Made by a program: the position numbers and the translations under genes
Assembly: GCF_032062105.1 (NCBI RefSeq)
Contig: NW_026936106.1
Span: 1-64,000 of the forward strand
Origin: Saccostrea cucullata
Lineage: Eukaryota
Direction: 5' to 3'
DNA: 64,000 nt
Shown: one piece after another, positions 7,601 to 35,747 of the stretch
How positions within the stretch are numbered: position 1 is the stretch's first letter
Layout: each line of letters opens with the position of its first letter
Notes under the pieces: generated by a model
Seen by the model: only the letters and a program-made list of their open reading frames with translations
Databases searched by the model: none
Told to the model about the DNA's origin: nothing

Positions 7601-10600
7601 ATATAATTACGCCTTTCCAAAAGGCGTTATTTCGCTTTTTCATACCAAAAGAAGTTAATATGCCTTTCCAAAAGGCGTTATTATGCTCTTTGAGAAACCA
7701 TTATTTTGCCTTCGACAGGCCCCTAATTTTGTTACCCCCCCCCTCCTCCACTCAACTGCCCAAACTCAAGGGGGGACTTCTCGTTCATACTTTATTTCAA
7801 TGCAATAACTTTCCAGAGTTTTACCAAACTGCAACAAAATGTTAAGGAACCCAAAAGTGTGTGTGTGCGTGTGAGGGTGCGTGTGTATGCGAGAGAGGGT
7901 GTGTATGTTGGAGGGGGAGGGGGTGTAGAATATACCTTTGGCACTCATACTACCAACCTGTTTTAAAAGGAAAATATAAAGACATTATTGAATTGATTGA
8001 AGATTGAATCAAAACCATCTTTATTTAAGCAATTTTCTATAATCCTGCACATCTCACTGACAACTGTTTGCATTCGTTTTAAGAGAGGTCAACACTATAC
8101 TTGTGAAAAACTAGGATATAGACAGATGCAGATTGGCGCTTTGCTTGTCATATATTCAAATTCATGTCATTCAAAAATAAATTTCTCTCCTCTTGGAAAA
8201 AAAGTAGGCATACTATTTGCATGAGTATAATGAGCAAATGAAATCAATGACCCTTTATAGAGGTGTAGTTGGTATTAGAGAAGGCCTTATAGTCTGTTCA
8301 ACATTGAATATTTATTACGCATTTAAAACTTTTTTCCAGGAAATCTAATTTCTTTCTGTTAAAATTATTTTTTTTTTAAACTAGCCCTATATCTAATTGT
8401 GATATTCATGTCTTAAAGTTAAGACAAGTTAAGTAAACAAATTGCTAATCATTTAAACAAATTACTTATTTTTTAAAGCATTATTAAGGTGTAAAAGCTT
8501 TCTCAAGCATGTGTATTTTACCAGAGTTTTGAAAATCAGGTATTATGGCCTTAAATTCAATTCATTTTTTGAATAATTCTAATATACCTTAGGTAACTGA
8601 TATACTTTCAATATAGAAATTTAATTAAATTCATAAATTACTTAGTAATACTCAATCATAGTCAGTTATTAACAATTATATTAAGTAACCATATTACTTA
8701 AAATAAGTAAAACAAAATACTAAGCAATTTCATATTTTAAGTGAAGGGTGTTGTTTTAATTTTTGGTTCCATGGTCAGGGTTTCTTAATTTTCCTGGGTT
8801 GCTTTATTGATGATATTGTAAAAATTCTTCCGAAAATCTTCAGCTTGGTGCATAGTCATGATAATGAGGGTAAAAAACTGGAAGATAGTATCCTGTACCC
8901 TTTTTCGAATTTTTGAAATTCTTAAACATTTGGTCATGGGTTCTGGTGTTAAAGGGAGGGATTGTGTTGAACCTGTAGTGAAAATGCATCACTAAGTAAT
9001 TCTTTGATAATCTTCTCTACTCCTGGGCGTATTGGAGGCAACCAGAGTAAAAGTTTTAATAAGAAAAGGTATTTTTAACCAGAGTTTTGAAAATCAAGTG
9101 TTATGACCCTAGCCATGTCATTTTTTTTGCATCCTACTAAAAGAAGTTATATCACTCTTTTAAATCACTTATTCATAAATCCGTGCAAATAGTAATTTCT
9201 TTTTAAAAATATTCATAGAATAAAAAAAAATATATGCAAGAATCTATAATGTGTAATGCAAAAGTATGCCCATAGATTTCATCGTAAGTAGACTTGTAAA
9301 CAATAGATGAATTGAAATGAAATAAAAATAACTTATCAATCGTTTTTCTACGACCAACAGAAAGTAAAAATAAGAGGTTAAAATAGAATAGAATCTTTTT
9401 AGTTTAATAATAGTCTGAATTGTGATAGTGACGTATGGGAAACCGATAAGAATTTAATTTATTTTCTGAAAGCAAGAGTAATTATTTCGATAACCCTTAA
9501 CATTTTGCTTTTTGGTAGCAAATCTTTGTTTATCAGTTTACTTTATTTACTCTGTGGATCCTCTGAATTGTTTTATTATACCCACGTGACCGTTAAGGTA
9601 CTTATTCCTCTTTTTAAGCATGAGATCACACATTTTTCGTGGGTTGAATGTCCAAAAATGCATCTTAAGGTTCATTGATACTCTAATAAGAGAGATAACT
9701 CTTAATGACATAAATGTCTATTATTCCTTTATAGATTTGCCAAGTTGAAGTATCTTTCTTGTCCAGTTTTGCCCCGCAAGTTATGCTTAAACTGTTTGTA
9801 TTTTACTTATAAAATACATTTCTTTTAGAAAATCATTAAGATTCAAGCAACATTTTATATGAGAGAGCAGAGGGTTTATGAACCTTAAGTTCTCATATCT
9901 CCTTAAAATAATAAGGTCAATCCCAGTTTGTGACAACATAAATGATTTTGCTTTCAATAAGAGAAAACGAAAAATGAAATTAATTTTATAAAAAATATAG
10001 AAAAAATTTTATGAAGGCTTTTGCTTAATATAGAAAATTTATAAAAATAATAAATAAAGATACACCCCGGTAATTTAGAATAATGAATATAGAGTTCGTT
10101 ACCATCTAAAAACTTAAATTGCCATCATTCTCTCAAAAATCATGAAGCGGAACAAAATGCAAACTTGATCTATAAATAATTAAAAAAAACTCACATAATA
10201 AAAATTAGCTCAGTTCATCTTTTACAAAATTGTCTGTTTGTCCTCTCCCGACCGACGCGCATAAAATGTTCCGACTCGTCACTCGAAACTTTTTAAACCT
10301 AAGGAAAAGACAACTTTTGTTCTAAGTTTTATTATCCCATCAACTTTAAGAAAGTTTAAAATTTTCAGGAATTTTTTTTCACCTATATTTACCAATCCAA
10401 TTATTTTTTTTTTACCATAAATTGGAAAGGGGCAAACAAACATTTAAAAAATGGCCTCAAAATATCTGCAAACCTCCTAAAATCACGAATTAATCGGGCG
10501 AAATCTTTTCGTAAGCTTGAAATAACCACATGTATGGTTACATTTATCAACAAACATATATTGATTGAAAATATGTGATTACTCTGATCCTGTTCATAAT

Positions 10601-11174
10601 ATTACTTGTACATGTACTTCTGATATTTAATCGAAAAATATTTGGTAATACGACATTTGTCTGGAATATATAAATCTGCTAATAAAATCTCCTAGCCATT
10701 GCTTCAAAGGAAGAGTTATTTGAATGTTTGCAGTATCCACTTGAGCAGACAAATCCTTCCACTAATTTTTGCCACCGAGTAAAGTTTCAAGTAAGTAGAT
10801 TTGATTTAGTTTCCTATGTACTCCAGAATCTTTTTTTTTATTTTACGTTCTGAGAAAAACAATGTAGTAATGAACACTGCACAAATAAATAAATGAATGA
10901 ATGAAATAAAATAATTTAAAAACTCGGGTATTTTAAATTTGATATAAAAAAGCATATAAACAGTATCAAGAGTAAAATTCCTTATTATATATTTGATTAT
11001 TCAAAGAATATGATAACAATATTTTTATTTAAAAAAATCAGCACAAAATATTTTTTCATATACTGTGTATTAATTCAATGTATGAGGATAACTCTATAAT
11101 AGAAATTTACCTATGTTTTTGCCATTTTACGAATGTTACTAGTCGTAATGTTTTTCCCCACATTATCATCTATT

Positions 11175-11885
11175 TTTGATATCTCGACGACGTATTTGTC
11201 AATTAACAATTGTAATTTCCATTCTTACGTCAATATGGTATATCCTAGTGAGTCTAAGATAAAAGATACCACAGATCGAGTCTGACACATCTGTTTCATA
11301 TTTGGATATTTTACTTGAAAAGGATGTTAATGGTAATCTAACAACCAATCTCTATGACAAACGTGATGACTTTAAGTTTTCTATCGTCAACTTCCCTTAC
11401 TTATGCAGCAATATACCTTCATCACCTGCATACGGAGTTTATATATCTCAGTTGATTCGATACGCAAGAGCATGCTCTACGTATAAACAATATCTAAGAC
11501 GACGTTAATTATTGACAAACAAGTTGATGGAACAAGAATTTCAGCTGTCTCGTTTTAAGTAATCATTTCGTAAGTTCTATGGTCGATTCAATGACCTCAT
11601 CAGCAAATATAATTTATCATCGAGTCAAATGCTGACTGACGTTTTTCATACTAGTTGTTAGTGCATTATTTATACACTGAATTGACGACAGTTTTTTTCC
11701 CGTTATTTCCCTATAATGACAAGGAGCACAAAGTGAATGTGACCAGTTGACAGGGGAGGCTCACTGCTCTATGGCACCTGATCCAACCACCGATGTTTTG
11801 GAGGTCCTTTTTTGCTCTGCTCCTATATTTTGTATTGTTTTATGGACTTTTGATCTTGAATACTGTTCGTTATCTCCATATGTTT
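11175..11885 (+). mobile_element. 5'-truncated Penelope-like retroelement (RT C-terminus, degenerate)
   Basis: YLDD remnant near 11180, LYDKRDDF.FSIVNFPYLCSNIPSSPAYGVYISQLIRYARAC, in-frame stops, conserved 3' tail. Confidence 0.85.
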
Positions 11886-11994
11886 CATTATATATTAATA
11901 AACGAGTGCCAGCTTCGAAAACAGCAAAGTTCACTGCTTTTGATTTTTAGCTTGCCTGTGCGAAATAAAAACGATAATACTTGAACAAAGACTG

Positions 11995-12575
11995 AACACG
12001 GTAGCCTACTGGTGGAGCGTTTGCTTCTTAAACTAAAGGTCGGAGTTTAAATCTAGCTCCTACGCCGCACCGCATCGAATTTAACACCTAAAAACTGATT
12101 GATTGATTCATTGATTGATTGATTGTTGTTTTACGTCCAGTTCGAGAATATTTCTCTCATATAGGGACGTCACCATGGATATTTCACTCATAAAGAAACG
12201 TCACCATATACCGGCGAAGGGCTTCATATTTTTACTATTACTCGGCACTTACGGCAATTGAGCAGTGAGGGATCTCTGTCGTGCAAACGCACGCCGTGAC
12301 ATTAAAATCTCATCTGAAACCGCCCCAACTGTCATTTCAAGGTGTAGAGCGCGACGGAACAGTTGCTACCCATTTTGTATCCACTTGGGTCAGTCGAGAT
12401 TCGAACTCACGACCTTCCGAGCATGGAGCAAGCGCTAGATACCTTAGATCCGACTGAGCTACCGTGAACTGTTGTTAAAGCTAACAAAGGTAGTGACTGT
12501 TTCTTCGCCAGCGTCCGGCAATTCAAGTAAAAGCCATGGATCTTCGATTGAGACTTAAAAGTTCCGTGCCATGGT
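11995..12575. mobile_element. Nested tRNA-derived SINEs: a minus-strand SINE (~12100-12465, (ttga)n tail) inside a plus-strand SINE
   Basis: B-box-like gattcgaactc on the minus strand, ttga microsatellite tail, body similar to the SINE at 29680; A-box-like start at ~11998. Confidence 0.6.
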
Positions 12576-15029
12576 ACATATAACATGAATTCTTTTTCAT
12601 GAACTATTTAGGGTTAAATCTTTGGTACTATATAAGAGAGACAAATTTTAACAGTCGTGTTCTATTTAAGGTCAATATTTGGTATACTTATTACAAAAGA
12701 CGTGTTCTCAGCAAGTTAAATGAAATACAGGTGGGCGCTTATTATACATGAGTGTCTATAACAAAAATATTGCAATATTATAAAAGGAATAATGAACACA
12801 CATCTTGATACATGAGTTGATAGGAGAAAAACCAATCGTGAAAATACCAAAGAGAAAAATAAACGCCTTATTATGGACTAGATTTGTGGGTGTTACATTT
12901 GATCACCCATGTTTTTTTTTAAAATAGCTGAAACATTTTTTTTTTAAATAAGTACCTCTTATATTGGATAATTTAAACATTTCTTAATTAATATCAATTA
13001 ACCTCATAAGTGTTAAAATCTAAATGAATATAAATTCAAACGTGCAATTATTCATTCAAGTTGTATTTGTACATCATCTACAAGAATCATTTATAAAGTC
13101 CGAGGGCGCTTTTGATTGGCATTCGGCAGGAATCTGGACGTACTCGAAAAGTGAAAATTTTATCGACATGTCATATGAAATTTAAACATTTTTTTTTATT
13201 TATCGGGTTCCTGTGAATTAAGAAAGGAGAATAATTTCCCGATAGTGAGTTTTGATTTGCTTAAAAATAACTTCAAAATTGGCTAGATCAGACATTTAGT
13301 ACAAAATGTTTCATTTTTAAACACGTTTTTCTAAAATTTTTCTATCTCTGGGTCTTCTCTCCATGATTTTGAAACGTTATTTGTGTGTATTTGAATTCAA
13401 AGAAACGAACATGCATTTGTAAAAAATGGAGAGAAGACCCAGAGACCATAAAAAATGAACTTTTTCCAAAAAATCCAATTGTGTAAATGTGGTGCTTCTT
13501 TGTCTATATCTAAAGTCCACTATATGAGTAGCGGTGATAGCTCAGTAATATGCATTACCTGTTCAGTGCACCAGAAATGAAAAGTTTTTGATTCGAGCCT
13601 CGCATGGGGCGTTAATTTTTTTTAATGCAAACAATCAATTCTTTTGTCAGTTACAATTTATGTACTGATTTATTCAAATTTTGAATTAGATAAATTTTGG
13701 TTCAGTTGCACCAAGAGCGAAATCAATTTCAATCTTCTATTCTACTTGCACTTTAATGTACATGTACACTTATTATATGTCTTTTATCTAATTGGTGTTT
13801 TTAATAATTTTTTTTTGGTGAAGCATTCCTTTGTTATTGTATTTCCTAAGAATAACGGGTAATAAATAGTACACTGGTATTCCAAACTTAATGAAAGAAA
13901 AATCCTAATGGCTGTGTTTGTAAAATCTGACCAGCTACGGTCAGCCAACCAAATCATGGACATTTAAACCACAAATGTTTCGTAGAAATGATTCCTGCAG
14001 ATCACACGCCAAATGCGCCCATCTTCTTTATAAACAGCGGCAAAAATGTCAATGTTTAATTCAAATGAAAGGTTTTCGTTGCCTCAGAGCAGTAGGTGTA
14101 AATCTATTATGTCTAATCAAGTCGAAAAAGATGGTCAAAAAGATTTCTTCGAGCATTAAGATATTTTTTTTACAAACAAAGAAAAAAATGATAGGCATCT
14201 TCTTGTTTACCACACAGGTATTTGTGGACAGGACCCCCCCCCCCCCTCCCCCCAATATACACCCCTGGTCAAAATATTTTTATTTTTTTTTTATGAATAA
14301 TATTATGTTTCTAGTACTTTTTTTTTTTAATTTTATTTTATTTTATTATCCATTTTATTACATACAGAATCAAATTAAAGTAACAGCAAAATTACAATTA
14401 TGGATATTTAACACTCACACACCCATCCATACATCCATTTACATTTTAAATTGATAATGAAGGTTGCTTTATAATAATCAATTGTCTCTATCATGCAAAC
14501 TAATTTAAGCAAACATCTAACATATACCTGTGTAATCTTACATTTGTTCAAATATATTTTTCCAAAGAATCCATTGTTCTTCAAAATAATGTAGATTTGA
14601 ATTGTTGATAGATAGGCATCTTTCAATATTGTATTTCATTTTCAAAAAGCTTAGTAAACCAAGAAGTGAAGGTATTCTTGGTTGCAATAAACATGAAAAA
14701 ATATATTGTTTTGTGTATAATACCATAAAGTTTTCAATTCTATTATCATTTGTAAATGGTGATTCACCTATAATAATATTTTTAACATTAAATGCAATTC
14801 TTTTTGAAATTGTTCTGTATACATGTATATGTAAACTCAAGTTCCTCCATAAAGATATAATATGGTCACAATGAACAAATACATGCAGTACAGTTTCAGT
14901 TTCTTGGGTACAAAACTTACAAACATCAGTAGTTTTTATATTGATTTTCTTAAGATAAGAATCTACAGGGAGGATCCTATGTAAAATTCTATATTGTAAC
15001 CACTGTACAGAAGACTCAGAAGTAGTCTA

Positions 15030-15210
15030 GTTTCTAGTACTTATTTACAATGTATTCCACGATTTAACGATTTACTAAAAAAAAAAGTAATACCCCTGGT
15101 ATTATAAAATAGAGGGGTATGACTTTTTTTTTTTTTAGTAAATCGTTAAATCTATGTTATTTTTGGATTTTTCATATGGAATACATTGTAAATAAGTACT
15201 TGAAACATAA
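15030..15210. repeat. Palindromic MITE-like repeat; related pieces at 14225-14320, 17830-17870 and 18130-18290
   Basis: Inverted arms gtacttatttacaatgtattcca...gatttaacgatttactaaaa / ttttagtaaatcgttaaatc...tggaatacattgtaaataagtac. Confidence 0.7.
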
Positions 15211-15836
15211 TTCATGAGAAAAAAAAAGAAAAAAATATCACAAGTACCTGTGGTTTACCACAAGAGCAATCTGGATTATCAATGAATTATTGCGTTTGAA
15301 TAAGTCTTGGTTCAATGCACAGTTGTGCCTTAATTTAGTATGAATAATGTTAGTGATTCGTTTTCCAAACAAAAAAATAAGAGGTGCTTTTCGATTATTA
15401 TCACTTATAATCTTGCAAAAAGAATTGACTGAGCTGGCTTCTCTTGTATTTGTACATTCTCTGTACAATTAAACCTTGTAACTACATACATGTATTTCAT
15501 TTGCACGCTCAATATTCATGCAATTATATATTTATTTCAACGGCATCGGTATTTTTTTTTTACGAAATGAAGAGATAATGAAACAATATACAGGTTAATG
15601 ACAATTTAAGAGCATGTCTCTTCTACTAATCTTTTATTTCTTCATATTGACCTTATGGCATACATGTTTTAAAAGACTTGCAAGCTTTATATGAGAGAAT
15701 ACTCTGACAAACATTTCTTTTAAATGTCAGTCGACTTTAAGTTAATTCGCATTACGATATGTCGATGGGAAGTTTACTCCAGGATATCTCATCCTTCCTC
15801 GGGTGTGTAAAATTGTTTTTTTTTATTTCAGGAATT

Positions 15837-16055
15837 ATGGACGCTAGATATATTGTCCTGGTTCTGATTGTCGCCAATGCTATCTATGACCTCTCAAGTT
15901 GTGGGACCGCCAGAAGTAGAAGAAATACCAGAGTGATACCCTCTTCCCTTCTTCCTCGATTTCTTTCTGTTGCCAGATCATTGAAGAATCTGAACATTAA
16001 AAACACTTGGACACTATCCAGATATTTAAAATGGCGTGCAATGTTTTGGAAATGA
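15837..16055 (+). CDS. Putative secreted cationic peptide precursor (72 aa: signal peptide, RSRR site, 43-aa Arg/Lys/Trp-rich peptide)
   Basis: Strong acceptor ttttttttatttcag|gaattATG; hydrophobic N-terminus YIVLVLIVANAI; furin-type RSRR; AATAAA about 10 nt after the stop; possible TATA (14029) and non-coding exon donor (14217) upstream. Confidence 0.55.
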   Translation: MDARYIVLVLIVANAIYDLSSCGTARSRRNTRVIPSSLLPRFLSVARSLKNLNIKNTWTLSRYLKWRAMFWK

Positions 16056-16124
16056 GGAAATGAAATAAAATTATTGTACAAAAAAAGATTTTATTTATTC
16101 TAGATGGTTTATACGCATTTGATG

Positions 16125-16735
16125 ACATATCCTAGTGAGTTTGAGATAAAAGATACCACAGAGTCTGACACATATGTTTCATACTTGGATATTTTACTTG
16201 AAAAAAGATGTTAATGGTAATTTAACAACCAATCTCTATGACAAACGTGATGACTTTAACTTTTCTATCGTCAACTTCCCTTATTTATGCAGCAATATAC
16301 CTTCATCACCTGCATACGGAGTTTATAGATCTCAGTTGATTCGATACGCAAGAAAATGCTCTACGTATGAACAATTTCTAAAACGGGGTAAATTATTGAC
16401 AAACTAGTTGATGAAACAAGACGTGCAGTCTCGTTTAAAGTCATCATTTCATTAGTTCTATGGTCGATACAATGGCCTTGTCAGCAAATATGATTTATCA
16501 TTGAGTCAAATGCTGACTGACGTTTTTCATACTAATTGTTAGGTCATTATTTATATACTAAATTGACGACGGATTTTCCCGTTATTTCCCGATCATGACA
16601 AGAAGTACACGGCGGGCGTGACCGGTCGGCAGGGGATGCTCACTCCTCCATGGCACCTGATACCACCTCCGATGTTTTGGAGGTCCTTGTGTGCTCTGCT
16701 CCTATTTTGTATTGTTTTATGTACTTTGATCTTGT
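16125..16735 (+). mobile_element. 5'-truncated Penelope-like retroelement (same family as 11175-11885)
   Basis: LYDKRDDFNFSIVNFPYLCSNIPSSPAYGVY.SQLIRYAR; high nucleotide similarity to the 11.2-kb copy. Confidence 0.85.
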
Positions 16736-16743
16736 CTGAATAA

Positions 16744-17018
16744 TGACTGAAACAACTAAATGGTGACTGAAACAACTGAATCGTGACTGCACTAACTAAA
16801 TGGTGGTTGAATCAACTACTGTGTAAATGGTCATTGAAACAACTGAAAGGTGACTGAAACAACTGAAAGGTGACTGAAACAACTGAAAGGTGACTGAAAC
16901 AACTGAAAGGTGACTGAAGCAACTAAAAGTTGACTGAAACAACTGAGAGTTGACTGAAACAACTGAAAGGTGACTGAAACGACTAAAAGGTGACTGAAAC
17001 AACTGAATGGTGACTGAA
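16744..17018. repeat. 20-bp minisatellite (ggtgactgaaacaactgaaa), about 13-14 units
   Basis: Directly visible tandem repeat; explains ORFs 16796-17037. Confidence 0.9.
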
Positions 17019-17608
17019 AGTTTTGCCATTTAACCACGGTGACCTTTCTATTGTCTTATAGTCGGCGTGGTAGACCTTCATCCAGTGATTTGGACTCACT
17101 CAATTCCCCGTTTTCATCCCTGGGTTTGACTTTCCCCCCACTCATCACATTAGTTCTTAATTGTTTAAAGTGTATACCATTATAAAAATCTGTAAAAACT
17201 TCAAATCAGTCTTTCGATACACATGATACAAGAAATGACCTAGTATTTAATTTGAAAGTAATACAAAATTGAAGTGAAGCAAAAGAAAAATAAAGATTAG
17301 TTTTCAATTAAAATTTGTATATATACAAATTTTAATCGAAGAATTCAACTTTTTGTAGAGGACAGTAGGTAGACCTGTGGGAAAATTTTAGTTTTCTTCA
17401 GAATTTGTCAACATATTTGTTGACGGCATAAGAGGAATAAAAAGAAAAAAAAACGTGTCCAGGAATGTAGAAAAAAAAGTTTTGAGTCGGCTCATTTTTA
17501 TTCAGTCGGTCGGGAGAAGGCAATCCAAGCATTTTTAGTTTAAAGTTGGCTTGATCGAGATAAACTTTTCAGCTCGAGTCGGGTTCGACAGTCATAAAAT
17601 TATTATAC

Positions 17609-17681: not shown

Positions 17682-17780
17682 ATGGTCGAGGGCCCAGGTT
17701 GTAAACTTAAAGGAGAGAAAATAAAATCTAAGCTTATGAATCAGACAGTGAAATCGGTCTCTGGAAACGCTGTGGAAAGG
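17682..17780 (+). CDS. NEIL3: NEIL3 exon 1 (MVEGPGCKLKGEKI...)
   Basis: ATG at 17682, donor gtaaga at 17781. Confidence 0.92.
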
Positions 17781-20700
17781 GTAAGACTTCTGAACAGCTG
17801 CCGAATACTTGAACGATAACACAAATACTTGTGGACAGGACCCCCCCCCCCCCCTATACACCCCTGGATTTTTTTTTTTGGAACGTTTTTGGATCACTTC
17901 CGTAATTCCTGGTTTGACATTTCCAAATTTTCACGTTTGAGGCTAAATAGTGGAATAATTGAGGAATGTCTGGGCAATAGATATTAAATGGCACGATTGT
18001 CGATTAAACAGTGTGAAAGACAAAAATATATATCGAAACAAGGTATGACACATTTTGGTGACATGTAGGTAAATGATATTTTAGGCCCGATATTCAAGAG
18101 GGGTCCAATGTAAACAAACCGAAGTGACTTACCTTCTCTATTTCATAATACCAGGGTGACTTTTTTAGTAAATCGTCAAATCTATGTTATTTTTTGGATT
18201 TTTTATATGGAATACGTTGTATATAAGTACTAGTAACATAATTCATGACAAAAAAAAGAAAAAAAAATATTTTGACCAGGGGTGTATCTCGGGTACTTAT
18301 TGGCTTAGAATCGTCAAACTTTGTCAGTTGATGCACCTTGGGTTTTCGGAGAATGTCAACCCAACAGTAGGTCACGGTGACTTACTTTTGAATATTTCAG
18401 GTACTTATTGGCTTAGAATCATCAAGCTTTGTTAATTAATGTCCTCAGAAAATTTCAATCAAAAAGTAGGTCACCGTGACCTACTTATGGTATTTTTCTA
18501 GCTATATTTAAATATCTTCAGTCCTAACTAGTAACTAGCTTAGAATCATCAAACTTTGTCAGTTGATGCATCAAGGGTCGTGGGATACTTAGAGTAGTTC
18601 AAGGCTTCAAATAGAAGTGCTAGATTGTACAATTTATCAGAAGAGCGACTGAAGGCCCTTGGGCCTCTTGTGTTATACCTAAACAATCAGAGGTGAAATC
18701 TTTATTCTTTTTTAACCAGATCAGGAAATAGTAAATTTATGATTTCCCTCTGCAGGAAACTATTTCCCTTGGCGGCTTTGATGCCTCGGGAAATAGTTTC
18801 CTCCCTCGGGGAACCATAAATTTGCTATTTCCCTCGTATCCCTTCCATATATGCATGCCTGGTATAATTTTATAAATGCATTATCATCATTCTATACCTG
18901 AATTATGCTGGGAAAAAGTGATAATGTTAATTGGTAACAAAAATAATTTTTCCTTAGAAGTTTTTGACTTACCGACACATTCCCTGGTATATTTCTGCTC
19001 CTATCAGACATCTATGATGTAAAAGTAAGCATTTGGCATGCTGAAATTCAACATGGGTATATCAAGCAAGAAGCATGATAAAACTATTTTGGAGTATTTG
19101 AACATAATTATAAGATTTAGAAAATCAAGAAAGACAAATGAATTTTATTAAAATGCTCTGACATTTTTAACAGAGCCCTTTAAGAAATAAACTGATGCCT
19201 CATTCAGTGAATTTCAAGATTTATACATCTATCATCAGAAAATCAAGGTTTCTTTCTTAAATGTATCTTTTACCAGGAGAAAAAGCCCAAGAAAGGTAAA
19301 ACAGACTCGCAGTTTGATGTGCTCATAGGAAAAACACTGACTAAAGTTCAGACTCTTGGGAAGGAGCTTTTTATGTACTTTGGAGACATATGTTTAAGGT
19401 AAAAAACTCAAAGACATGAAAGCAGTCTTCCTCATCCTTAGAAAATAAATGAGAAGTATGCCCAGAAGTATTGTTAATTAAAAATTAATCAATCACAATT
19501 TAAATTTGGAAGCAAAAAAAATGTTTTTAGTCTTATTTTTTTAATTTCATTTATTTTTGACTGGCATTTAATGATCAAGTTAAAATTTGTCCTATTCTGA
19601 GGAGGAGACATGTCCCATTTTCTTCAACAGGGTTCATTTTCTGATGGCAGGGTCATTTCGTGTAAATGGACAGGCCCTGGACAAAGATTATGGGAAACTG
19701 ACTGAGACGCCTTCCTTACAAGTGGATTTTTCAACAGATGTACTGACTTTTTACAAGTCTGCAGTACAAATCAGGTGGGAATCTACAACCGATTAAATTT
19801 AAAGTAGTTCTATATTTGCACTACGTCACTGACAATTTTAAAAGAAAATAGTGTACAGTGCATAGATTTAAAACATATGATACAGTAATTGCTAAAAAAC
19901 ATTACTAGTTTGTGATTTTGACAAATGGTATTATGTATTGAGTTTCTGGGATTCTTTCTGTATAATCATATTAAAATGGTATCTATCAATTTGGAAATGT
20001 GAACTTGGAAAATTTGCAAAAATACAGCTTTGTTGTACTGCAATTGCAATGAACTTGAAAATATTATTTTTTATAAATATACTGTGGTCAGATTTAATTG
20101 AAAGAAAACAAAATCAACTAAAACATCCATTTACTTTCCAACTTTTTGATCTCTCAAAATCTGTTGACAGAGAATCAGACTCTTGCTGCACCAGGTATGA
20201 TAACCTTCATGACCTTGACATTTGCTCCCCAGTATTTAACCACCAGAGGGCCGTAACCTTGGTGATGGAGCAGTGTGATCGCCAGGTGTGTGATGTACTG
20301 CTGGATCAGACCATCCTCCCAGGGGTCGGAAATATCATAAAAAATGAGGTACTGGATTGATTGAATGTATGTTGTTTAACATCACTCTAAAGAATTTTTC
20401 ACTCATGTGGAGATACCTCCACATGCCAGTGGAGAGATGCAAATTTTGTCTTATGCTCGGCACTCAGGAGCATAGAGCAGTGATTTTGTTTTTTCGTGCC
20501 AGCACCTATGAAATAAGTATTATTTATACCCTTCTAGATATCATGACTTAATATTGTTAAAAGGGAATTGTATGTACGTTGTAAACTGACTTATCCTTAA
20601 TGGGCATAATAAAAAATATGAAAACGTGTGATCTTTGGAAAGAGAAACTCCATCACATATTGTGATATTCACAGACTTGATTTACAAATTTTGCTTACCT

Positions 20701-23700
20701 AGAAGAATAGAGATTTCAAATTTTGTACTCATTGAAAATTTGAATTTATTTTCTTCGTTGATAAGCATTTTTTCTCTCTTTGCTCAACACTTATCTTGAT
20801 TGATACACTGCTCTTCATTAAGTTTGTTAAATCTTATACTTTCACACGGACATTAGAGCTTAATACATTTTTTTTATTACTCAGTTTTATACTACATATT
20901 ATAAAGTATTTAAAGCAATATGAGCTGTATTTTTGAGAATTTTATTTTGCTGGTAAAAGGTGTTATTATGATTAATGTGTATGTAATCTAAACCCTTATG
21001 ATCAATAAAACCAAAACAAAGTTTAAAAACGTTTCAGAGGAAATATTCCTGCACAACCGAATATACAGCATTATATAAGAAATCATTATTGTACAGGACA
21101 ACAATAATTCAATTTGGCTTCAATCAAAGCATATTAAAAGTTCTTTTATCGCAAATATGAACAACAGAGGTTTATAAATGTTCTATTTTTCTGTCATTGA
21201 AATAGTTAATTACAAATTTGCAACATTTTTCCCAGGTGTCAAACATGCTGCTCATTTTGCTTTAAGCAGTGGTACCCTTCAATTGCATTACAATGGCCTT
21301 TACTTTCTCATTTTTCTACAGTACAGTATTTAGACACTTTTATATTTTACAAAGGAGGGAACATTTTATTTCTCTTTTTTAAAATAATAGAGACATTCCA
21401 ATTCCATATAAAAGCAAACATTTATATAAATGACTTGAAACATTTATTTTTCATTTTACTATGTAGGCATTATTTGACAGTGGTATCAAACCAAATTCAA
21501 AGGTAAGGAATGACTTAAATTACTAGATGAAACACTTTTCTGTTCATTTTTTAAAGCAATATTCTTATTTCTTTAGTACCAGGTATTCAATTTCTTCTCT
21601 TGGGTCAGATAAGTTTTCAGGAACTGAAATTAAGATGCAAAGGAAAATGTTTGTAAGAGGCTTACATCTACATAATTAGTTTAAGAGAACATTCATTTCA
21701 TTACCAAGTATACATTTTATAATTAACTTTAAAAACTGAGATTAAGGTTGAGCATTTCTATTTTCAGGTCCAGGAACTTTCTAAGGAGCTGATTTCACAC
21801 CTTGTAAAAATGACAAGAGATTTTTCACTTATTTTCTACAAGGTGGGATTAAAGTGTCTGTTATTCTCAAAATTCTGATGTGATCTTTATTTCTGAATGT
21901 GTACAATGTCATTACAAACTAATGCTTATATTAATTATCAATTTTTTGGTTATATAAAAAGTGAAATAATGCATTGAAATAAACAGTTTCTAGTTTAATA
22001 AATCATGAAATTTAAGATTTCAAATATTTGCATGGTCTATATAATGATATACAGCTAAATAACAATTATAGCTAGGCTGAATTCAATATGAGCAAGGTGA
22101 CAGAACTTGAATATTTGCTTGTAAAGAAGTAAAAAGTTCCTAAAAAATTTACCATAAAACATTGTTTTTGCTAACATTGTGTTAAAAAAAAAAATTTTGA
22201 TCTGTCTAAATGATGTCTTGGGAAAAAAAATTTGCCAATCAATTGATTACTATCAGATCATCCTCAAAATTTCCTGAAATTTACACTACATCCTGTTCTT
22301 TGAAAATAAATCAATTCCTTTAATTAGTGTAGAAAAACAGGCACCAATTTGAACCAGTATATGAAGATATACAACAAGCGGAAGTGTAGCCAGTGTGAAG
22401 GGAAAGTGACAATAACTCGTACGGGAGAAGACAGTGAACGGATGACCCACTATTGCCCTATTTGTCAGACCAACACACTGAAATCAACTGTCAAGTGAGT
22501 AGTGGATGTTGTTTATTGTGGTAGGGCACATTAAAATGAGGCCGGCATTAAAAATATCTTTGTTTCCCCTAACCCGACCCTAAATTCTCAAGTTGGGTCG
22601 GTAGGTAGGTAAACAATTTTATTTTCTGACAGCAGTTTTGAAAATACAGACTAAAATTTAATAGAAAATTACCTTTATAAATAAGAAAAATACAAAAGAA
22701 AGCTATTTGTGATCAAAATGCTAAGTATCATACATATGCCGTTTCAAAGCAAAATTCATGATTAATTAATTCACAACTGTTATTAAGTTGAACTTGTGAA
22801 ATATCTCACGGCATTACATTTAAATAAATTGAATAAAATAGACAAGATTCTCAAATATGCAAAGACCAGACATACGAGTATATTTTTTCAAACCTTCCAT
22901 CGGCCTTCAGAGCTTATAGATGATCAATGTACTTTTTGAGGCAATGAGATTTGCAGTGGTTCTGGAGCATTTTGCTTTGGAGTAAAGAAATAAGTGGCTA
23001 ATTTTAAATCGCAGGTTCAAGTCCCAATGAGTTACGTTGAAAACGATCCTTCAAAGGGGACTATTAAAATTTATGTCCAGTGTCCCAGAAGCTGCTGACT
23101 CAAAAAAGATCCCCTACTTCTTAATGGCAAAAAAAGTGCTGAGTACGTCTAACTTTGGAGCAGTGGGGAAATGTTTAAATGTCGTCCTAACAAATCTCGA
23201 AGGGATTAAAAGCAAAGAAATAACCAATCTTCAAGGGCATAATTAGAGAAAAATACACTGGACGTCTCAGGAAGCTGAATCCTAATTTCAAAACTATCTG
23301 GAAAGAGTATGTTAACAATATTTAATTGAACCAACCCGAATCTACAAATGATAAAAATGCTATATACAATGTCATAGTCACGAAGTTTAACCAATGAATA
23401 ACGGCAGGAAGAAAGGACATCTGAATTATATTTATCAGGTTGAATATGCAGGCATATTTACAACAACTCCTATAGTTCCATAATGGCATATAGTAAACAT
23501 AGGAACATAGATGAACTGGTTATTAGATCAAACTCAAATTAAATAAAATGCAGTGAAAATGAATGATGTGTTCACTAGGTGGGCCCCTCATCTACTCATG
23601 AGGCGGGCCTTACCATGTATTATGCACCTTAAATTCAAAGACAGATTTGTTTGTTTGTTTGTTGTTTAACGTCCCTTTCAAAAAATTATTCGCTCACATG

Positions 23701-26700
23701 GAGACGCCAAGCCACCTCCGAAACACCCTTAATTAATCATGATAAATATTATCGAAATGTTTCAAGAGTGAAGAATTCAAATTAGCTAAAAGCATACGAT
23801 TGAGACGTCGCCATTGTTTTATGAAGAGTTAATGGCCTGTAATCACATCTGGACGTCATTTTGTTTTCAACAAATGCTTGAAAATCACAGTAGAACAATG
23901 TCGGCCGTTCTGATAAAAGCTGATTTTGATGAAATTGTATTTTATAAAACTTGGTTAACAATAAAAATAATATTTGCATCATCTTATTCAAAAAATCTTT
24001 TCAGTCGGTGCAATTTAATTGGGTCGGTCGCGAAACAAAGGTATTTTTTATTTTGGCCTGAAAGATATTTCTGACTCAGCTTATTTTTTAGCTCATGTGA
24101 GCTTTTCCCCCTCTCTCCTTCTTTGCCTCATGTATACCTTTTCTATATGAAAACTCAAATATGCACATTGTCATATACATTTGACAGAATTCATCCATCT
24201 AAAAACAGTCTGCTGGGATGGGTTCAGACAGCCAATCAGAAAGCAGAGGAAGATTCAGCCAATCAGAGAGCAGAAGGAAACACAGCCAATCAGAAACCAG
24301 AGGATGACTGGACTTGTGAAGTTTGCACACTGATAAACAAAGGGGCACATCTCAGTTGTGAGGCCTGTCAAACAGAAAGAAAATGGGAAATTTCTGGTAA
24401 GGTTTTGATCTTAAAGAAATTCAATTAGTACTCTTTTTATTTTTTAGCTCACCTCAACAAAGTTGGGGGAGCTTATGTAATACCCTCGGCGTCGGTGTTG
24501 GCGTCCCAGGTTAAGGTTAAGTTTTTTGGAGCAGTTTTCTTTTTAAGTACTTCTATGTCCTATATTGATTAGACAATCATGGAAGATGTTTCTAGTGTGT
24601 TTCATTGTACCAGACGTCGCACACAAAATTGGGGCTGATTTTGTAATGTCAAAATATACTTTTCTGACATTGTTGCCTATGTAAAAACATCTAAAATATA
24701 AGGGGTAACAAATTCGACTAGACATTCAATTTTTCCTCCCGTTTTCCTAAAAATGTCTTACTTTTTAGTGTTTCTTTCAATACAAAATTTTATTTATTTG
24801 CACATTTGAAAAAAAATATTTTATCTGTTAAAAGTTTTCCCAGTAAATAGAAAATACATCTTATATTGGTGCTATACGCCCGATTAAAGACTATCATACG
24901 CATATTTACGCCGTAGTAACAAAACCGACTAGACATTGAAATTGCTCTATTAAACTCTCTTACTACTTGCTTATAATTTTTTAAAGAAACATTTGACAAC
25001 TTCTTAATATGCACATTTCATTTATCAACATAGGTTCACGAAAAGAATCTATTTTTAAGTGAAAAATCTTTACCAAACATTCCATCTGTTATTGTTACTT
25101 GTCAAGATCACAGCGTATTACGGAATGTTTTCAATTTTTGACAGTCGAAATCGGCCAATAAATTGGAAAATTATGAATGAGTGTTGTGTGACATCATCAC
25201 AGGACATTATAGAAGCATCGTACAAATTGGCAGAGAAATCCATGTAGCCAAAACGATATAATGACCAAAAGTACAAAAGCCCGTCTTTAACAGTGTTACA
25301 ATTTACGCAATTTCAAGCCCCAATACTATGCGCGACGTGACCAGTCAAAGTTTCAGATGCTGCATTTTCAGGGAAGGAATGACCAGGTTTATGTTTTTGG
25401 AGCAGGTTAACATTTTTGGTGCAGTTTTTGGTGTAGGTCTCATTCAAAGGAACTATACAGGTGTCACAACAGTATTAATTTCTGCTATATATTCTTACCA
25501 AAAATGCGCAAGTTTGAGCAGATGTAACTAATTCAAAACAAACTTCTGAGAAGTTTCCTTTTCAGATCTTGTAAAACCATTCTTTATAAAGATTTTAGTA
25601 CCAAAAAATACATAGCCATCCAGCAAGGCACGCAAGTTTGTTTCGGTCGAAGTCGAGCAGGTGCTTGAAAATCTAGTCCAGGGCCTAATCACTCCCCACT
25701 CTTGACAGTATACAGAAAAATCAGCAAGCCCTAAATTTTAATAAATCTGGTCAATACAGGAAGTTTACATGTTGTTTTTCATCTCATAAAAAAATTCAGC
25801 TCCAGTCTCGTATCAAAATGCCCGAATCGGAAGGGAAGATTCTGGGATTATTTTTCGTCAGCCATGATTTGACGTGAACCAAAGTGTAATACTGTTATGA
25901 CACCTGCAATTAAACTTTAATTTTTGCCTTGCCGCTATTTTGCTATTTTCCCGATCTATGATGATTATTTAATGTATTTACCAAGTTTCATAAAAATCCG
26001 TCCCAAGATAGGAAAATTACGGGCAAAACTCTGTGACAGGGGGCTTCGCGGTGGACACGGATTTCTAAAAATATGGCAAAAGTTGAACTGTATGTAATGA
26101 TCTTGCGCGTTAAACTTGTGCGGTTTTTTCGTTTTAATTTTTCAATGGATGCATACTGATTCACATGAGGATGAAAAACTGTTCAAAATAAGTTTGGTTT
26201 TTATAACAGGGCGATAGAAATAGTTTTTGTCATAAGGTTGGGGGGTGGGGTTAAAAAGGGCATTGAAAAAATAAATATAATTGAAATATTAAGGTGTTTT
26301 CTGCTTAATTACAATTGATTTGCCTCAATAATTATTTTTCCCGACCGGATTTCTTTATCTGTTACCAATGTGTTCCAAATAAACCGATTTTTACACATAT
26401 TCAGAATTTTTATTTTGCTCCGAGTGTGGTCTAAATTTTTTAAATTCATAGATTTTAAAATTATTTATGAGTAAATAATGTTAACGAGTGTGATGGCAAG
26501 GTATCTTTTAAGCTGTCCTCTAAATTTCATGCATTTCTCTCAACCCGATACATCCAAATCAGGCCGTGGTGTGGCCAACATAATTTGTTTTAGAGGAAAT
26601 CTGGACTAATTTTCTATGCTCCATTAAAAATGAACGAACAGCGATGACGGCCGAAAAATGCCATTATTTCTCATTTTTCGTCTAAACTCACAAAATAAAA

Positions 26701-29270
26701 CCTTAATTCTAAGACTACAGTATTTCTAAGTACAAAATTCGGTTTTACTGCAGGTGTCACAACAGTATTAATTTCTGCTATATATTCTTACCAAAAATGC
26801 GCAAGTTTGAGCAGATGTAACTAATTCAAAACAAACTTCTGAGAAGTTTCCTTTTCAGATCTTGTAAAACCATTCTTTATAAAGATTTTAGTACCAAAAA
26901 ATACATAGCCATCCAGCAAGGCACGCAAGTTTGTTTCGGTCGAAGTCGAGCAGGTGCTTGAAAATCTAGTCCAGGGCCTAATCACACCCCACTCTTGACA
27001 GTATACAGAAAAATCAGCACGCCCTAAATTTTAATAAATCTGGTCAATACAGGAAGTTTACATGTTGTTTTTCATCTCATAAAAAAATTCAGCTCCAGTC
27101 TCATATCAAAATGCCCGAATCGGAAGGGAAGATTCTGGGATTATTTTTCGTCAGCCATGATTTGACGTGAACCAAAGTGTAATACTGTTATGACACCTAT
27201 AAGCCCTATGTTGACCAAACTGGCATTGATGATACATCTAAGGATGCACACTACCAGGCTTGCTTCGGATGTTGAATCTGACCTACATTTTCTGGAGTGA
27301 GTGAACAGGTTAAATATTTTGGTGCAGGTTTCATTTCCAAGTAACTATGAGCTCTTTAATGACCAAACTTGCATGGATGATACATCTAAGGATGCATTCT
27401 ACCAGGCTGGCTTTGGTTGCTGAATCAGAACTACATTTTCTGGATGAGTGAAGAGGTTAAATTTTTATGCAGGTTTTATTTCCAAGTAACTATGAACCCT
27501 ACAGTTGAGCAAACTTGCATGGATGATACATCTTAGGATGCACACTAATGGACTTGCTCCGGATGCTGAATTCGACATATATTTTCCAGAAATGGACCTC
27601 GTAAAAGTTATTGGTGCAGGTCTATTACCAAGAAACTCTAAAGCTTATATAAACCAATCTTGCACAAATGATGCATCAAGGGATGAAAACTCTCAAACTT
27701 GCGTCAGATGCTGAATTTTAATCACATTTTCATGATGAAGATTGAAGAACTAGGTTGAAGTTTTTATATACGTCTATTCCAAAGTATCAGATCAAAATTG
27801 CATACATTTTGCATTTTTGGATGTACACTCTTTGTTGAGTAATTGTGTGACTTTGCCTTACTTAAAGACAACATTCATTGAGATGAGCTCTGTAATTTTC
27901 TGATTACCAGTAACCTATGTTTATTTCATTAAATCAATCATAATCTATCTACATGTCTGCATTATTTCCATAATTTATAGTTGAATATTTTCATTTTTGA
28001 TACCATACAAATTGACAGTGTTTTAAAATTTACCAAAATAGCAAATTTTGACTCTGTCCTCTTTTCTGTTGAATCATGTAGAGTATCTTTATATTGAAAT
28101 AGGTACTGCAGTATCAGATTTGAAGAGAAAGTTATCAACAGATTCTGATGAACAGACAATAAAAAGAAAAAGAAATGAAGATACAAGTGGAACAAAGACT
28201 TTGATCAACAATAAGGCTTCAAATTCTACACAAATTCAAGAGAGCAATCACTCTCAAGCAAATAGAAAAACCACTCTCTCCTCTCCTCATTTCGATTCTG
28301 CAGCATCTCAAAAATTAACGGCTGCTAATGGAAATAAACTGGTGCACCCACAAAATGTGATCAATTCATTACATCGTAACAAACACATAAAAGATAATAA
28401 AAGAGACAGTAAAGCATTAGTGCAACAAAGACGATCATCAGAGGCTATGGGATCGGGTACCAGTAAAATTCCAGCTGGTCAGAGTACCAGTAAAATCCCG
28501 CTCTGTCCAGGTCACAGTAAGCCCTGCTCTATGACACAAACTAGGAAGAAGGGAGATAACTTCCTCCGATGGTTCTTTACATGTGGGGTCTATCCAAGGG
28601 CTAAGCAGTGCAAGTTCTTTAAGGTAAAATCAAAAATGTAAATTCACACTGTTCAGTAAGTTTTAAATGTTATTTTTTGTTTACAAGGTTTGTTTGTTGA
28701 TTTTGATAAGCATTCTATGCCTGAAAGGTGACTCAATGGCAGTGTTCTGCTGTTCAATCATCTTTCCAGATTTTTCAGTAACTATTCGATCAGTTGTCTG
28801 ACAGGAGCAGTTTTATCCTTTGTTAACGAGGCTGGGGCGTGGCAGCCATTTTCAGAGTATTTTGATCTCCTTTAAAAGAAGAGCTACATATAAAGATATA
28901 CAAAAATGATCAAATTTTAAACCTAAAATGTATGAATTTTTTCTTTGCCAAATGATAGTTGACAGCTTAAGATACAGTATCTAAAAAAATAAGTTAAATC
29001 TGGTGGTTAATTTGTGGTTAATTTGTTGACCCCCCAGCCTCCTTAATTACTGTGTTTTTTGTTTATTCATTACAATATTTCAAGTTCTTTATGAAGTTGT
29101 TTGTCTTTTAGTGGGCTGATGAGAGTTTTCCTATCTGTCCAACCCATGGAAAACCAGCCGCATTCAGAACAGTCCTAAAAGAGGGACCAAACAATGGGAA
29201 AAAATTCTTTGCTTGTCCACTACCAAAACAGAAGCAGTGCGGATTCTTTGAGTGGGCGGAGGGTTTCTAA
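17682..29270 (+). CDS. NEIL3: Endonuclease VIII-like 3 DNA glycosylase, 10 exons, 1710 nt / 569 aa. Exons: 17682-17780, 19277-19398, 19631-19774, 20171-20348, 21467-21502, 21768-21842, 22328-22494, 24188-24396, 28103-28623, 29112-29270
   Basis: MVEGPGC start (Val2 nucleophile), TLGKELFMYF, H2TH LLDQTILPGVGNIIKNEALFDSG, Fpg zinc finger, RanBP2 zinc finger, two GRF zinc fingers; all introns GT-AG with consistent phases; AATAAA at 29360. Confidence 0.96.
18290..18672 (+). mobile_element. Helitron/HINE-like non-autonomous element remnant with internal tandem units
   Basis: Three gcttagaatc(a/g)tcaa... units and a 3' hairpin aaggcccttgggcct followed by cttgt. Confidence 0.55.
18724..18832. repeat. 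Palindromic hairpin element
   Basis: ggaaatagtaaatttatg...ggaaactatttccc / gggaaatagtttcc...cataaatttgctatttcc. Confidence 0.75.
19277..19398 (+). CDS. NEIL3: NEIL3 exon 2 (VQTLGKELFMYFG)
   Basis: ccag acceptor, gtaaaa donor. Confidence 0.92.
19631..19774 (+). CDS. NEIL3: NEIL3 exon 3 (VHFLMAGSFRVN)
   Basis: acag acceptor, gtggga donor, phase 2/2. Confidence 0.9.
20171..20348 (+). CDS. NEIL3: NEIL3 exon 4 (H2TH)
   Basis: LDICSP...LLDQTILPGVGNIIKNE. Confidence 0.93.
21467..21502 (+). CDS. NEIL3: NEIL3 exon 5 (36 nt, ALFDSGIKPNSK)
   Basis: gtag acceptor, gtaagg donor; continues the H2TH motif. Confidence 0.88.
21768..21842 (+). CDS. NEIL3: NEIL3 exon 6 (LVKMTRDFSLIFYK)
   Basis: ttttcag acceptor, gtggga donor. 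Confidence 0.9.
22328..22494 (+). CDS. NEIL3: NEIL3 exon 7 (Fpg-type zinc finger CSQC...YCPICQ)
   Basis: ttag acceptor, gtgagt donor. Confidence 0.92.
22540..24058. mobile_element. Non-autonomous DNA transposon, GGCC termini, 3-bp TGA TSD (PIF/Harbinger-like)
   Basis: tga|ggcc...aaaatatctttgtttc...ccgaccc versus gggtcggtcgcgaaacaaaggtattttt...ggcc|tga. Confidence 0.7.
24188..24396 (+). CDS. NEIL3: NEIL3 exon 8 (RanBP2 zinc finger WTCEVCTLIN...CEAC)
   Basis: gacag acceptor, gtaagg donor. Confidence 0.92.
24560..25385. mobile_element. Degenerate TIR element nested in NEIL3 intron 8 (ends approximate)
   Basis: acgtcgcacacaaaattggggct versus agccccaatactatgcgcgacgt inverted match. Confidence 0.4.
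25458..27199. mobile_element. Composite: two direct 449-bp MITE copies (25458-25906, 26751-27199) flanking 844 bp, outer TA TSD (Tc1/mariner-like)
   Basis: Each copy has TIRs caggtgtcacaacagtatta / taatactgttatgacacct(g/a); removing the whole restores aactaTAagccc. Confidence 0.8.
28103..28623 (+). CDS. NEIL3: NEIL3 exon 9 (disordered linker and GRF zinc finger 1)
   Basis: PLCPGH...KKGDNFLRWFFTC...CKFFK. Confidence 0.9.
29112..29270 (+). CDS. NEIL3: NEIL3 exon 10 (GRF zinc finger 2, stop)
   Basis: WADESFPICPTHGK...KEGPNNGKKFFACP...CGFFEWA. Confidence 0.93.
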   Translation, partial: WADESFPICPTHGKPAAFRTVLKEGPNNGKKFFACPLPKQKQCGFFEWAEGF

Positions 29271-30992: not shown

Positions 30993-31519
30993 TGTGGCGA
31001 CTGTCTATCAGTTTCTTGAATGATCACACAGGTTTTTCCTTTTTCCATTTTATATACATATGCAAACATATAAACAGTACAAAAACAAACATACATTAGA
31101 CTGAAAGTAAGAAACATGCCACATTGGAAATAGTTACAACATACATATTATCTCAAAATCCTAGAAATATGTGTCTACTACTGCACAAGCTCTTCTATTA
31201 AGTCTACCTTTTACCTTAATTCTACAAGTGACTGAAATCTATATCAAAAACTTTAATTAAACGATCTGACTATCTCTGACTTCTGACGAACGTCTGCTAC
31301 ACTTCTGCTCTACTTATTTCCTGTTTCTAAAACTAGACAAAAGATAAACAAACGGACAAAAACGGAAACGGACTAAAAAATACACCATAAACTCTGACCT
31401 GACAAAAACGGACACATAAATAATTACACTTATGACATACAATAACAATGTCAGAAAATCATAATAAAATAGAAATGAATAGGAAATTAAACATTGTTAA
31501 TGTTAACACATTCACAACA
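30993..31519 (-). repeat. 3'-terminal LTR (527 bp)
   Basis: tgtggcgac...cacaaca on the + strand; about 6 differences from the LTR at 42005. Confidence 0.93.
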
Positions 31520-31539
31520 CTCCCGCGACCAAAAATGAA

Positions 31540-35057: not shown

Positions 35058-35119
35058 AATCCAAAGCTCTCCAAACCTGTGTGATCAATGTGGCGACTGT
35101 CTATCAGTTTCTTGAATGA

Positions 35120-35485: not shown

Positions 35486-35747
35486 TTTCTTTTAGTTGAG
35501 TCAACACAATACGAAAGCTTTTTGGTTCCCACAACGGCTTCCCGGGTTCCGGCACCAATCAGTTGCAGTCCGCCTTATCTCTTATTTCAAAATTTGCAAA
35601 TGAATTTTTACTGGAAGCATTATGGACATTTTCTGACTGCAGTGCTTTGGATTTCCAAGATTGTTGTGAATGTGTTAACATTAACAATGTTTAATTTATT
35701 TTCTATATTATTTTAATTTATTTATATAAAGTGTAAGATTCAATCAA

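What the first reader, a model, noticed from the sequence alone, without database searches (positions are those of the whole stretch)
15837..16055. Unannotated-looking secreted cationic peptide gene (candidate novel antimicrobial or signalling peptide)
Seen: a polypyrimidine/AG acceptor 5 nt before the ATG, a hydrophobic leader (MDARYIVLVLIVANAIYDLSSC), an RSRR proprotein-convertase site, then NTRVIPSSLLPRFLSVARSLKNLNIKNTWTLSRYLKWRAMFWK (43 aa, 5 Arg + 4 Lys, no Asp/Glu/Cys, 3 Trp) and AATAAA just after the stop. A TATAAA (14029) and a cag|gtatt donor (14217) could supply a non-coding first exon. Inference: a linear amphipathic host-defence-like peptide that I cannot match to a family I recognise.
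Basis: partly seen in the sequence, partly recalled or inferred. Interest (0 to 1): 0.7.

Follow-up and report, generated by a model that had tools for sequence, protein, structure and literature searches.

The report
Unnamed rock-oyster cationic peptide family
This rock-oyster gene is one of five conserved copies in the genome and encodes a small protein with no match in the databases searched; it is likely secreted and cut to release a strongly positive, predicted helical peptide of 41-43 residues that most likely defends against microbes, though a hormone-like role remains possible and neither has been tested.

Summary
The 72-codon frame at 15837-16055 is real and behaves like a gene. Five copies occur in this Saccostrea genome; the window's and C11173's lie in collinear blocks and may be alleles. 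All keep the acceptor, the frame and a single coding exon. The predicted mature part is under purifying selection (dN/dS 0.09-0.35 among four copies). The conserved promoter and exon lie further upstream (TATA 10667, donor 10790/10791, 5,041-nt intron). No homologue was found in protein, Pfam, PDB or paper searches. Amphipathicity is no higher than in shuffles. Best reading: a lineage-restricted, cysteine-free host-defence peptide (0.5). Main rival: a receptor-directed hormone or pheromone (0.27), favoured by the conserved mature part and variable leader, the reverse of myticalins. Expression, cleavage and activity are untested. The scan held no earlier look-alike.

The parts
10484..10701 (+). 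Conserved promoter (predicted), with TATA box at 10667-10675
   Evidence: 218 bases without a mismatch against C11173, in a block with 5.1% mismatches (94 of 1,856; permutation p 0.00055). Homologous to the upstream regions of C1133 and C1531b (z 16.1 and 13.5; 0 of 100 shuffles reach either score) and weakly to C1531a (z 3.6; 1 of 100). Not a common repeat: 2 matches in the genome.
10697..10790 (+). Predicted non-coding exon 1 (start inferred about 30 nt after the TATA box); holds a 6-codon upstream frame at 10724
   Evidence: Ends at the only strong donor consensus in 10000-15830. All five copies have a TATA box 85-127 nt before a GT donor. Not verified by RNA.
10791..15831 (+).
   Evidence: The intron is 574-4,945 nt in the other copies.
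15832..15836 (+). 5 non-coding bases of exon 2 after the acceptor
   Evidence: Acceptor and these bases are conserved in all five copies.
15837..15902 (+). Predicted signal peptide, 22 aa (basic start, hydrophobic core, Ser-x-Cys end)
   Evidence: Best 9-residue Kyte-Doolittle mean 3.3. Ser20 is invariant and Cys22 is present in 4 of 5 copies. Helix at 3-23 in the model. SignalP was not available; a cut after Ala15 is also possible.
15903..15923 (+). Predicted short pro-piece ending in Arg-Ser-Arg-Arg
   Evidence: All internal length differences among the copies fall here and are multiples of 3 nt. Arg-Arg precedes the mature start in 3 of 5 copies.
15924..16052 (+). Predicted mature peptide, 43 aa, net +9, no acidic residue or Cys; ends Phe-Trp-Lys where three other copies end Tyr/Phe-Gly-Lys
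   Evidence: dN/dS 0.09-0.35 among the four copies with ATG in exon 2. Predicted helix at residues 39-70 of the precursor.
16053..16069 (+). Stop codon, an 8-base duplication and AATAAA (16064-16069)
   Evidence: AATAAA lies within 12 nt of the stop codon's first base in 4 of 5 copies; none within 400 nt in C1531b.

Best explanation
This gene belongs to a five-copy rock-oyster family that encodes a 70-78-residue precursor, which is likely secreted, likely cut at a pair of arginines and, in most copies, likely amidated, to give a strongly positive, predicted helical peptide that most likely acts in host defence. Shown: the frame, the copies, purifying selection on the mature part, a conserved upstream block with TATA box and donor, and the charge. 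Inferred: transcription from TATA 10667 and splicing 10790 to 15832; signal cleavage after Cys22; convertase cleavage after Arg29; removal of the last Lys and conversion of Gly to an amide where Gly-Lys-stop is present. The window copy has Trp instead of Gly, so it would stay a free acid. Inferred mechanism: the +8/+9 peptide binds anionic microbial surfaces; a moderately amphipathic middle helix (Phe13-Leu23 of the mature part) and a Trp/Tyr/Arg/Lys-rich C-terminal helix, joined by an Asn-rich stretch, insert at the membrane interface. I put the gene and secretion at about 0.9 and the defence role at 0.5.
For: Five copies with open frames. Conservation falls off outside the exon. Mature-part dN/dS 0.14, 0.19, 0.11, 0.35, 0.10 and 0.09 over the 6 pairs of four copies, Fisher p<0.05 in 5 of 6. 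Variable columns by codon position 11/9/23, p 0.018. Promoter conservation. In C1531b the start codon reads ATA, but the predicted splice supplies an in-frame ATG 15 nt upstream, an independent fit to the splice model. Net +6 to +10, one acidic residue over all five mature parts, 37-51% hydrophobic. Helix predicted. Dispersed duplication, variable C-terminal processing and no homologue found outside the genome resemble bivalve defence families. Myticalins share the non-coding first exon, the intron just before the ATG and Gly-basic amidation (PMC5577615, passages and section 2.1 read). Insect AMPs show little adaptive divergence (PMC4874389, abstract only), so purifying selection does not exclude this role.
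Against: The mature part is the conserved part and the leader is not measurably constrained (dN/dS 0.42-4.65, 0 of 10 pairs significant, few sites). Myticalins show the reverse pattern. The hydrophobic moment does not exceed shuffles in any of the 5 copies (23-78% of shuffles reach the best 11-residue value), and over the 32-residue helix it is only about 0.2. No NF-kB-like site was found in 200 bases before the TATA box in 5 of 5 promoters, and GATA sites are near background (patterns recalled). There is no long anionic pro-piece. The dibasic site is missing in 2 of 5 copies. The model is of low confidence (mean pLDDT 63.9, pTM 0.27). The pairs are not independent, and dS is 1.5-1.9 for pairs with C1531a. 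With the fifth copy the codon-position excess is not significant (16/19/28, p 0.16). No evidence of expression or activity is in hand.
Confidence: 0.5

Rival explanations
1. The product is a receptor-directed signal (hormone, paracrine factor or waterborne pheromone): a 41-residue amide with a flexible N-terminal part and a C-terminal helix, built like CRF/ELH-type ligands but unrelated to them in sequence.
For: 43 residues from the mature start to the final Lys in 4 of 5 copies; Gly kept at the same place in 4 of 5 and Gly-Lys-stop in 3 of 5. The mature part is conserved while the leader drifts. Low amphipathicity. The likeness to CRF precursor architecture is recalled, not from a call.
Against: No member matches a hormone family in Pfam at E<=10 (one unrelated weak hit in 1 of 5) or any PDB chain. 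ELH and CRF profile searches of the genome did not hit these loci (the controls rang nowhere, so this is weak). Family motifs were absent from the one held supplement of a C. gigas neuropeptide survey (PMC8398477: 3 of 5 terms had no hit, and the hits of the other 2 that were shown lie in unrelated precursors). Both processing signals are together in only 2 of 5 copies. Neuropeptides are usually shared across bivalves (own knowledge).
Confidence: 0.27
2. The peptide is a structural or adhesive secretion (shell matrix, larval cement, mucus or gamete coat) that binds anionic polymers through its charge and aromatic residues.
For: Lineage-restricted, secreted, cationic, with conserved Tyr and Trp. 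Such orphan families are common in bivalve mantle secretomes (own knowledge).
Against: No repeats or low-complexity stretch; fixed short length; an amidation signal; purifying selection on a non-repetitive sequence.
Confidence: 0.13
3. The family is functional but the window copy is decaying or changing role: it has lost the amidation glycine, and its leader and intron end have drifted.
For: Gly replaced by Trp and an 8-base duplication at the stop. At sites where the window copy differs from both C11173 and C1133, C1531a sides against it in 7 of 12 (leader) and 12 of 15 (intron end). Leader dN/dS against C11173 is 1.0.
Against: Promoter unchanged over 218 bases. Mature dN/dS against C11173 is 0.14, p 0.01. 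Acceptor, ATG, dibasic site and AATAAA are intact. The Trp codon sits at the border of two homopolymer runs and may be a sequencing error.
Confidence: 0.07
4. The frame is a chance product of a repeated non-coding element.
For: No protein database holds it, although the neighbouring NEIL3 is annotated.
Against: Only five copies; in-frame indels only; excess of silent changes; a separate conserved promoter 0.6-5 kb away. Each other frame has stops in at least 2 of 5 copies.
Confidence: 0.03

Closest known systems
Myticalins / modiocalins (Mytilus, Modiolus; PMC5577615 passages and section 2.1 read; PMC12294457 passages read)
   Same: Cysteine-free cationic peptides from small secreted precursors; multigene family; non-coding first exon with an intron just before the ATG; dibasic processing; Gly-basic amidation in some members; pI above 11 and Arg above 10%.
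   Different: Here the dibasic site precedes the peptide and nothing follows it; there is no anionic extension, no second intron and no Pro/Arg repeats; the mature part is conserved and the leader variable; a helix is predicted.
Cecropin-type and other linear helical AMPs (features recalled, not from a call)
   Same: Short precursor of signal, brief pro-piece and about 40 cationic residues ending in an amidation signal; predicted helix.
   Different: No Pfam or PDB match; weaker amphipathicity; dibasic release; aromatic and basic C-terminal part.
CRF / ELH / DH44 peptide hormones (Pfam PF00473, PF02323; architecture recalled)
   Same: About 41 residues between a dibasic site and Gly-Lys-stop, predicted helical and amidated, conserved in the mature part.
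   Different: No profile match; precursor of only 70-78 aa; no acidic residues; not found outside this genome.
URP20 of Crassostrea hongkongensis (PMC8399951, passages read)
   Same: Oyster peptide with a predicted helix, positive charge (+3) and reported antimicrobial activity.
   Different: Found by no-enzyme plasma peptidomics; the passages read describe no dedicated signal-peptide precursor, and the residues listed include no Arg or Trp.
Molluscidins and Cg-Prp (oyster; passages in PMC5577615, PMC12294457)
   Same: Cysteine-free cationic oyster peptides.
   Different: Molluscidins lack a signal peptide and consist of dibasic repeats; Cg-Prp is short and proline-rich.

Membership tests
Myticalins | Signal + cationic peptide + dibasic site + anionic C-terminal extension | tested here: not met
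   The dibasic site lies before the peptide; the stop follows it in all five copies.
Myticalins | Conserved signal peptide, hypervariable mature part | tested here: not met
   Reverse pattern: mature dN/dS 0.09-0.35, leader unconstrained (PMC5577615 section 2.1).
Myticalins | Mature pI above 11 and Arg above 10% | tested here: met
   pI 12.0 and 5 of 43 Arg in the window copy.
Myticalins | Three exons: non-coding first exon and a phase-1 second intron | tested here: not met
   A non-coding first exon is predicted, but the coding part is one exon.
Linear helical antimicrobial peptides (as a kind) | Net positive charge with 35-50% hydrophobic residues (recalled range) | tested here: met
   +9 and 44% in the window copy.
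Linear helical antimicrobial peptides (as a kind) | Strongly amphipathic helix | tested here: inconclusive
   Helix predicted at low confidence; moment 0.57 in the best 11 residues, not above shuffles.
Linear helical antimicrobial peptides (as a kind) | Microbial killing by membrane attack | not testable with these tools
   Needs synthetic peptide.
CRF/ELH/DH44 hormones | Match to PF00473 or PF02323, or to a solved member | tested here: not met
   0 of 5 members match; no PDB chain at E<=10; genome scans did not hit these loci (controls silent).
CRF/ELH/DH44 hormones | About 40-residue product between a dibasic site and an amidation signal (recalled) | tested here: inconclusive
   Both signals in 2 of 5 copies (C11173, C1133); the window copy has only the dibasic site.
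CRF/ELH/DH44 hormones | Activation of a class B GPCR | not testable with these tools
   Needs a receptor assay.
Molluscidins | No signal peptide; dibasic repeats | tested here: not met
   Hydrophobic leader present and no repeats (description).

The most novel reading that the evidence does not exclude
A young, rock-oyster-restricted family of receptor-directed 41-residue amidated helical peptides, a hormone or pheromone unrelated to any known neuropeptide family, whose copies have switched amidation and cleavage off independently to tune or change the signal.
Probability: 0.25. Interest if true: 0.72.

Novelty: new variant of a known kind. Interest (0 to 1): 0.5.

Why it matters
A 2025 paper states that no amphipathic helical AMP has been described in bivalves (PMC12294457, introduction passage); URP20, a plasma peptide with a predicted helix, qualifies that statement. 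If the defence reading holds, this is a dedicated gene family for a helical, amidated, cysteine-free peptide in oysters, easy to synthesise and test, with natural variants that differ in amidation. If the signal reading holds, it is a new lineage-restricted ligand. Either way it shows that short secreted genes are missing from protein collections even where the neighbouring gene is annotated.

Tried and rejected
Homologue searches: P0001 gave 1 candidate, none scored; alignment A2 gave 1,293 candidates, none scored; both covered near lengths only. The profile against 1.84 billion representatives gave 1 hit at E 8.9e-4, a 368-aa translated tandem repeat, rejected on inspection. Pfam: none for P0001, one weak unrelated hit for 1 of 5 members. 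PDB sequences: 0. Foldseek: 1 match at E 9.3, meaningless. Metagenome contigs: 91 pattern matches, none confirmed; one DNA-pattern match whose frame stops after 5 codons. ESM Atlas gave no result. No RNA holder was listed; this is no evidence either way. Three weak own-genome hits (E 0.21-2.5) were left out of all counts: two contain stops, and the two inspected share no exon sequence. Presence/absence of the gene could not be tested: the flanks of C1133 and C1531 have no second near-identical contig. Paper searches: three family-specific motifs had 0 occurrences in the 20 papers listed of 277, all of which matched only a short fourth term in unrelated texts; topic searches (listings and abstract openings) showed no description of this family. 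Subscription papers and most supplements were not seen and may list it. The S. glomerata transcriptome paper (PMC4892480, passages read) names big defensins, hydramacin and BPI in its AMP list. Rejected: the first exon at 14029-14217 (repeat); a degenerate donor at 13245 (no clear homology); a role as upstream exon of NEIL3 (three copies lie on contigs whose fetched stretches show no NEIL3 match, and the gene has its own AATAAA). No complex prediction was run, as no partner is known.

Full report
Observation. The acceptor lies 5 nt before the ATG, the 43 residues after Arg-Ser-Arg-Arg have the stated composition, and AATAAA starts at 16064. The host is a rock oyster: an exon of the NEIL3 gene that begins 1.6 kb downstream is 100% identical to a protein named Saccostrea cucullata endonuclease 8-like 3 and 68% identical to that of S. 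echinata.

It is a gene family. A search of the window's genome gave 7 matches from 8 candidates, five of them strong: the window, C11173 (83%), C1133 (74%), C1531a (64%) and C1531b (56%). Queries with the most distant intact copy and with the mature part alone returned the same five; three weak hits were dropped. These counts are lower bounds. All five share the acceptor, five untranslated bases and one coding exon, and similarity falls off on either side. Internal length changes are in frame and confined to the pro-piece. In the mature part dN/dS is 0.09-0.35 over the six pairs of the four copies with ATG in exon 2 (p<0.05 in 5 of 6) and 0.21-0.56 in the four pairs with C1531b (p<0.05 in 3 of 4). 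In leader plus pro-piece it is 0.42-4.65, with 0 of 10 pairs significant on few sites. Variable columns fall 11/9/23 on the codon positions for four copies (p 0.018) and 16/19/28 for five (p 0.16). The pairs are not independent and some dS values are near saturation. C11173 is collinear with the window, with NEIL3 dS 0.24 (some codons may be misaligned), close to the 0.22 of this gene. The two may be divergent alleles or a segmental duplicate, so there are four or five genes.

14027-14214 is a dispersed repeat (1,641 candidates; 39 of 40 scored are non-self at 87-90%), and the stretch 12858-15812 does not align with the collinear contig. A conserved block lies further up: 218 bases without mismatch against C11173 (10484-10701; permutation p 0.00055), with a TATA box at 10667 and, at 10790/10791, the only strong donor consensus in 10000-15830. 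All five copies have a TATA box 85-127 nt before a GT donor; the C1133 donor is a weaker one. In C1531b the usual start reads ATA, but the predicted splice brings an in-frame ATG 15 nt upstream, which fits the model and leaves that copy possibly intact. It lacks the dibasic site, Cys22 and a nearby AATAAA. Splicing is predicted, not shown.

Processing (inferred). A basic start, a hydrophobic core (Kyte-Doolittle 3.0-3.6 over 9 residues in all five) and a conserved Ser-x-Cys suggest signal cleavage after residue 22; SignalP could not be run. Arg-Arg precedes the mature start in 3 of 5 copies. This gives a 41-residue amide with 8 basic and no acidic residues in C11173 and C1133. C1531a keeps the Gly but reads four codons further. 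The window copy has Trp; a single base separates it from the C1531b codons, at the border of two homopolymer runs, so a sequencing error cannot be excluded. AlphaFold2 predicts a leader helix, an extended stretch and a helix over residues 39-70, at low confidence.

Function. For defence: net +6 to +10, almost no acidic residues, 37-51% hydrophobic, aromatic C-terminal part; dispersed duplication; variable C-terminal processing; no homologue found elsewhere; gene layout partly like myticalins. Against: amphipathicity no higher than in shuffles in 5 of 5 copies; no NF-kB-like site in 5 of 5 promoters; and a conserved mature part with a variable leader, the reverse of myticalins, though insect AMPs also show little adaptive divergence (PMC4874389, abstract). 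That pattern, the fixed length and the amide suit a receptor ligand, but no hormone family matches and only 2 of 5 copies keep both processing signals. I give defence 0.5, signalling 0.27, structural secretion 0.13, a decaying window copy 0.07 and chance 0.03.

Known relatives. None was found among near-length proteins of the 5.8-billion collection, the 1.84 billion representatives, Pfam, PDB by sequence or fold, metagenome contigs, the scan's earlier notes or the paper searches. Other oyster genomes could not be searched, so 'lineage-restricted' rests on protein collections that miss this gene even in its own species; relatives may exist unannotated. It fails the membership tests for myticalins, molluscidins and the CRF/ELH family, while it may work like a linear helical AMP. 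PMC12294457 (passages read) says no amphipathic helical AMP is described in bivalves; URP20 (PMC8399951, passages read) is a partial exception.

Verdict. A real, apparently undescribed family of small secreted cationic peptides, with a corrected gene model and a likely ancestral amide. The kind is familiar, the family is new and the function is untested. Interest 0.5.

Noticed in passing
window 17682-29267 (+): NEIL3 (endonuclease VIII-like 3) gene, matching a named S. cucullata protein; the collinear copy on C11173 differs by dS 0.24 and dN 0.07, high for alleles.
   Followed up: partly
window 31436-44267 (-): Tandem retroelement-like copies, one with an open 1,874-aa frame (36309-41933); BEL/Pao type by recalled motifs, not tested. 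The whole block is absent at the collinear place in C11173.
   Followed up: no
L008, C11173, about 720-850 nt upstream of its ATG: A second TATA box and donor homologous to those of C1531a (z 15.3), so C11173 may have two alternative first exons; not recognisable in the window.
   Followed up: partly
L011, C1531:138046-138264 (-): Copy whose start codon reads ATA but whose predicted first exon supplies an in-frame ATG; more hydrophobic, without the dibasic site or a nearby AATAAA.
   Followed up: partly
window 46375-49036 (-): Multi-exon gene with a lectin-like piece (recalled likeness), a Ser/Thr-rich repeat stalk and a hydrophobic segment; also on C11173.
   Followed up: no
window 53388-61463: Tandem array with a period of about 2.6 kb: the same short frames recur at 53388, 56005, 58617 and 61230.
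   Followed up: no
window 11174-11890, 16122-16734, 654-850: Copies of a common dispersed repeat with a decayed coding frame (Penelope-like by recall; no Pfam match); one begins about 65 nt after the peptide's stop. A 20-base tandem repeat follows at 16736-17019.
   Followed up: partly
L023/L024, C1531:101135-102551 (+): A 472-aa open frame with paralogous DNA at two more places on C1531 and one on C2510, about 70% identical; not identified.
   Followed up: no
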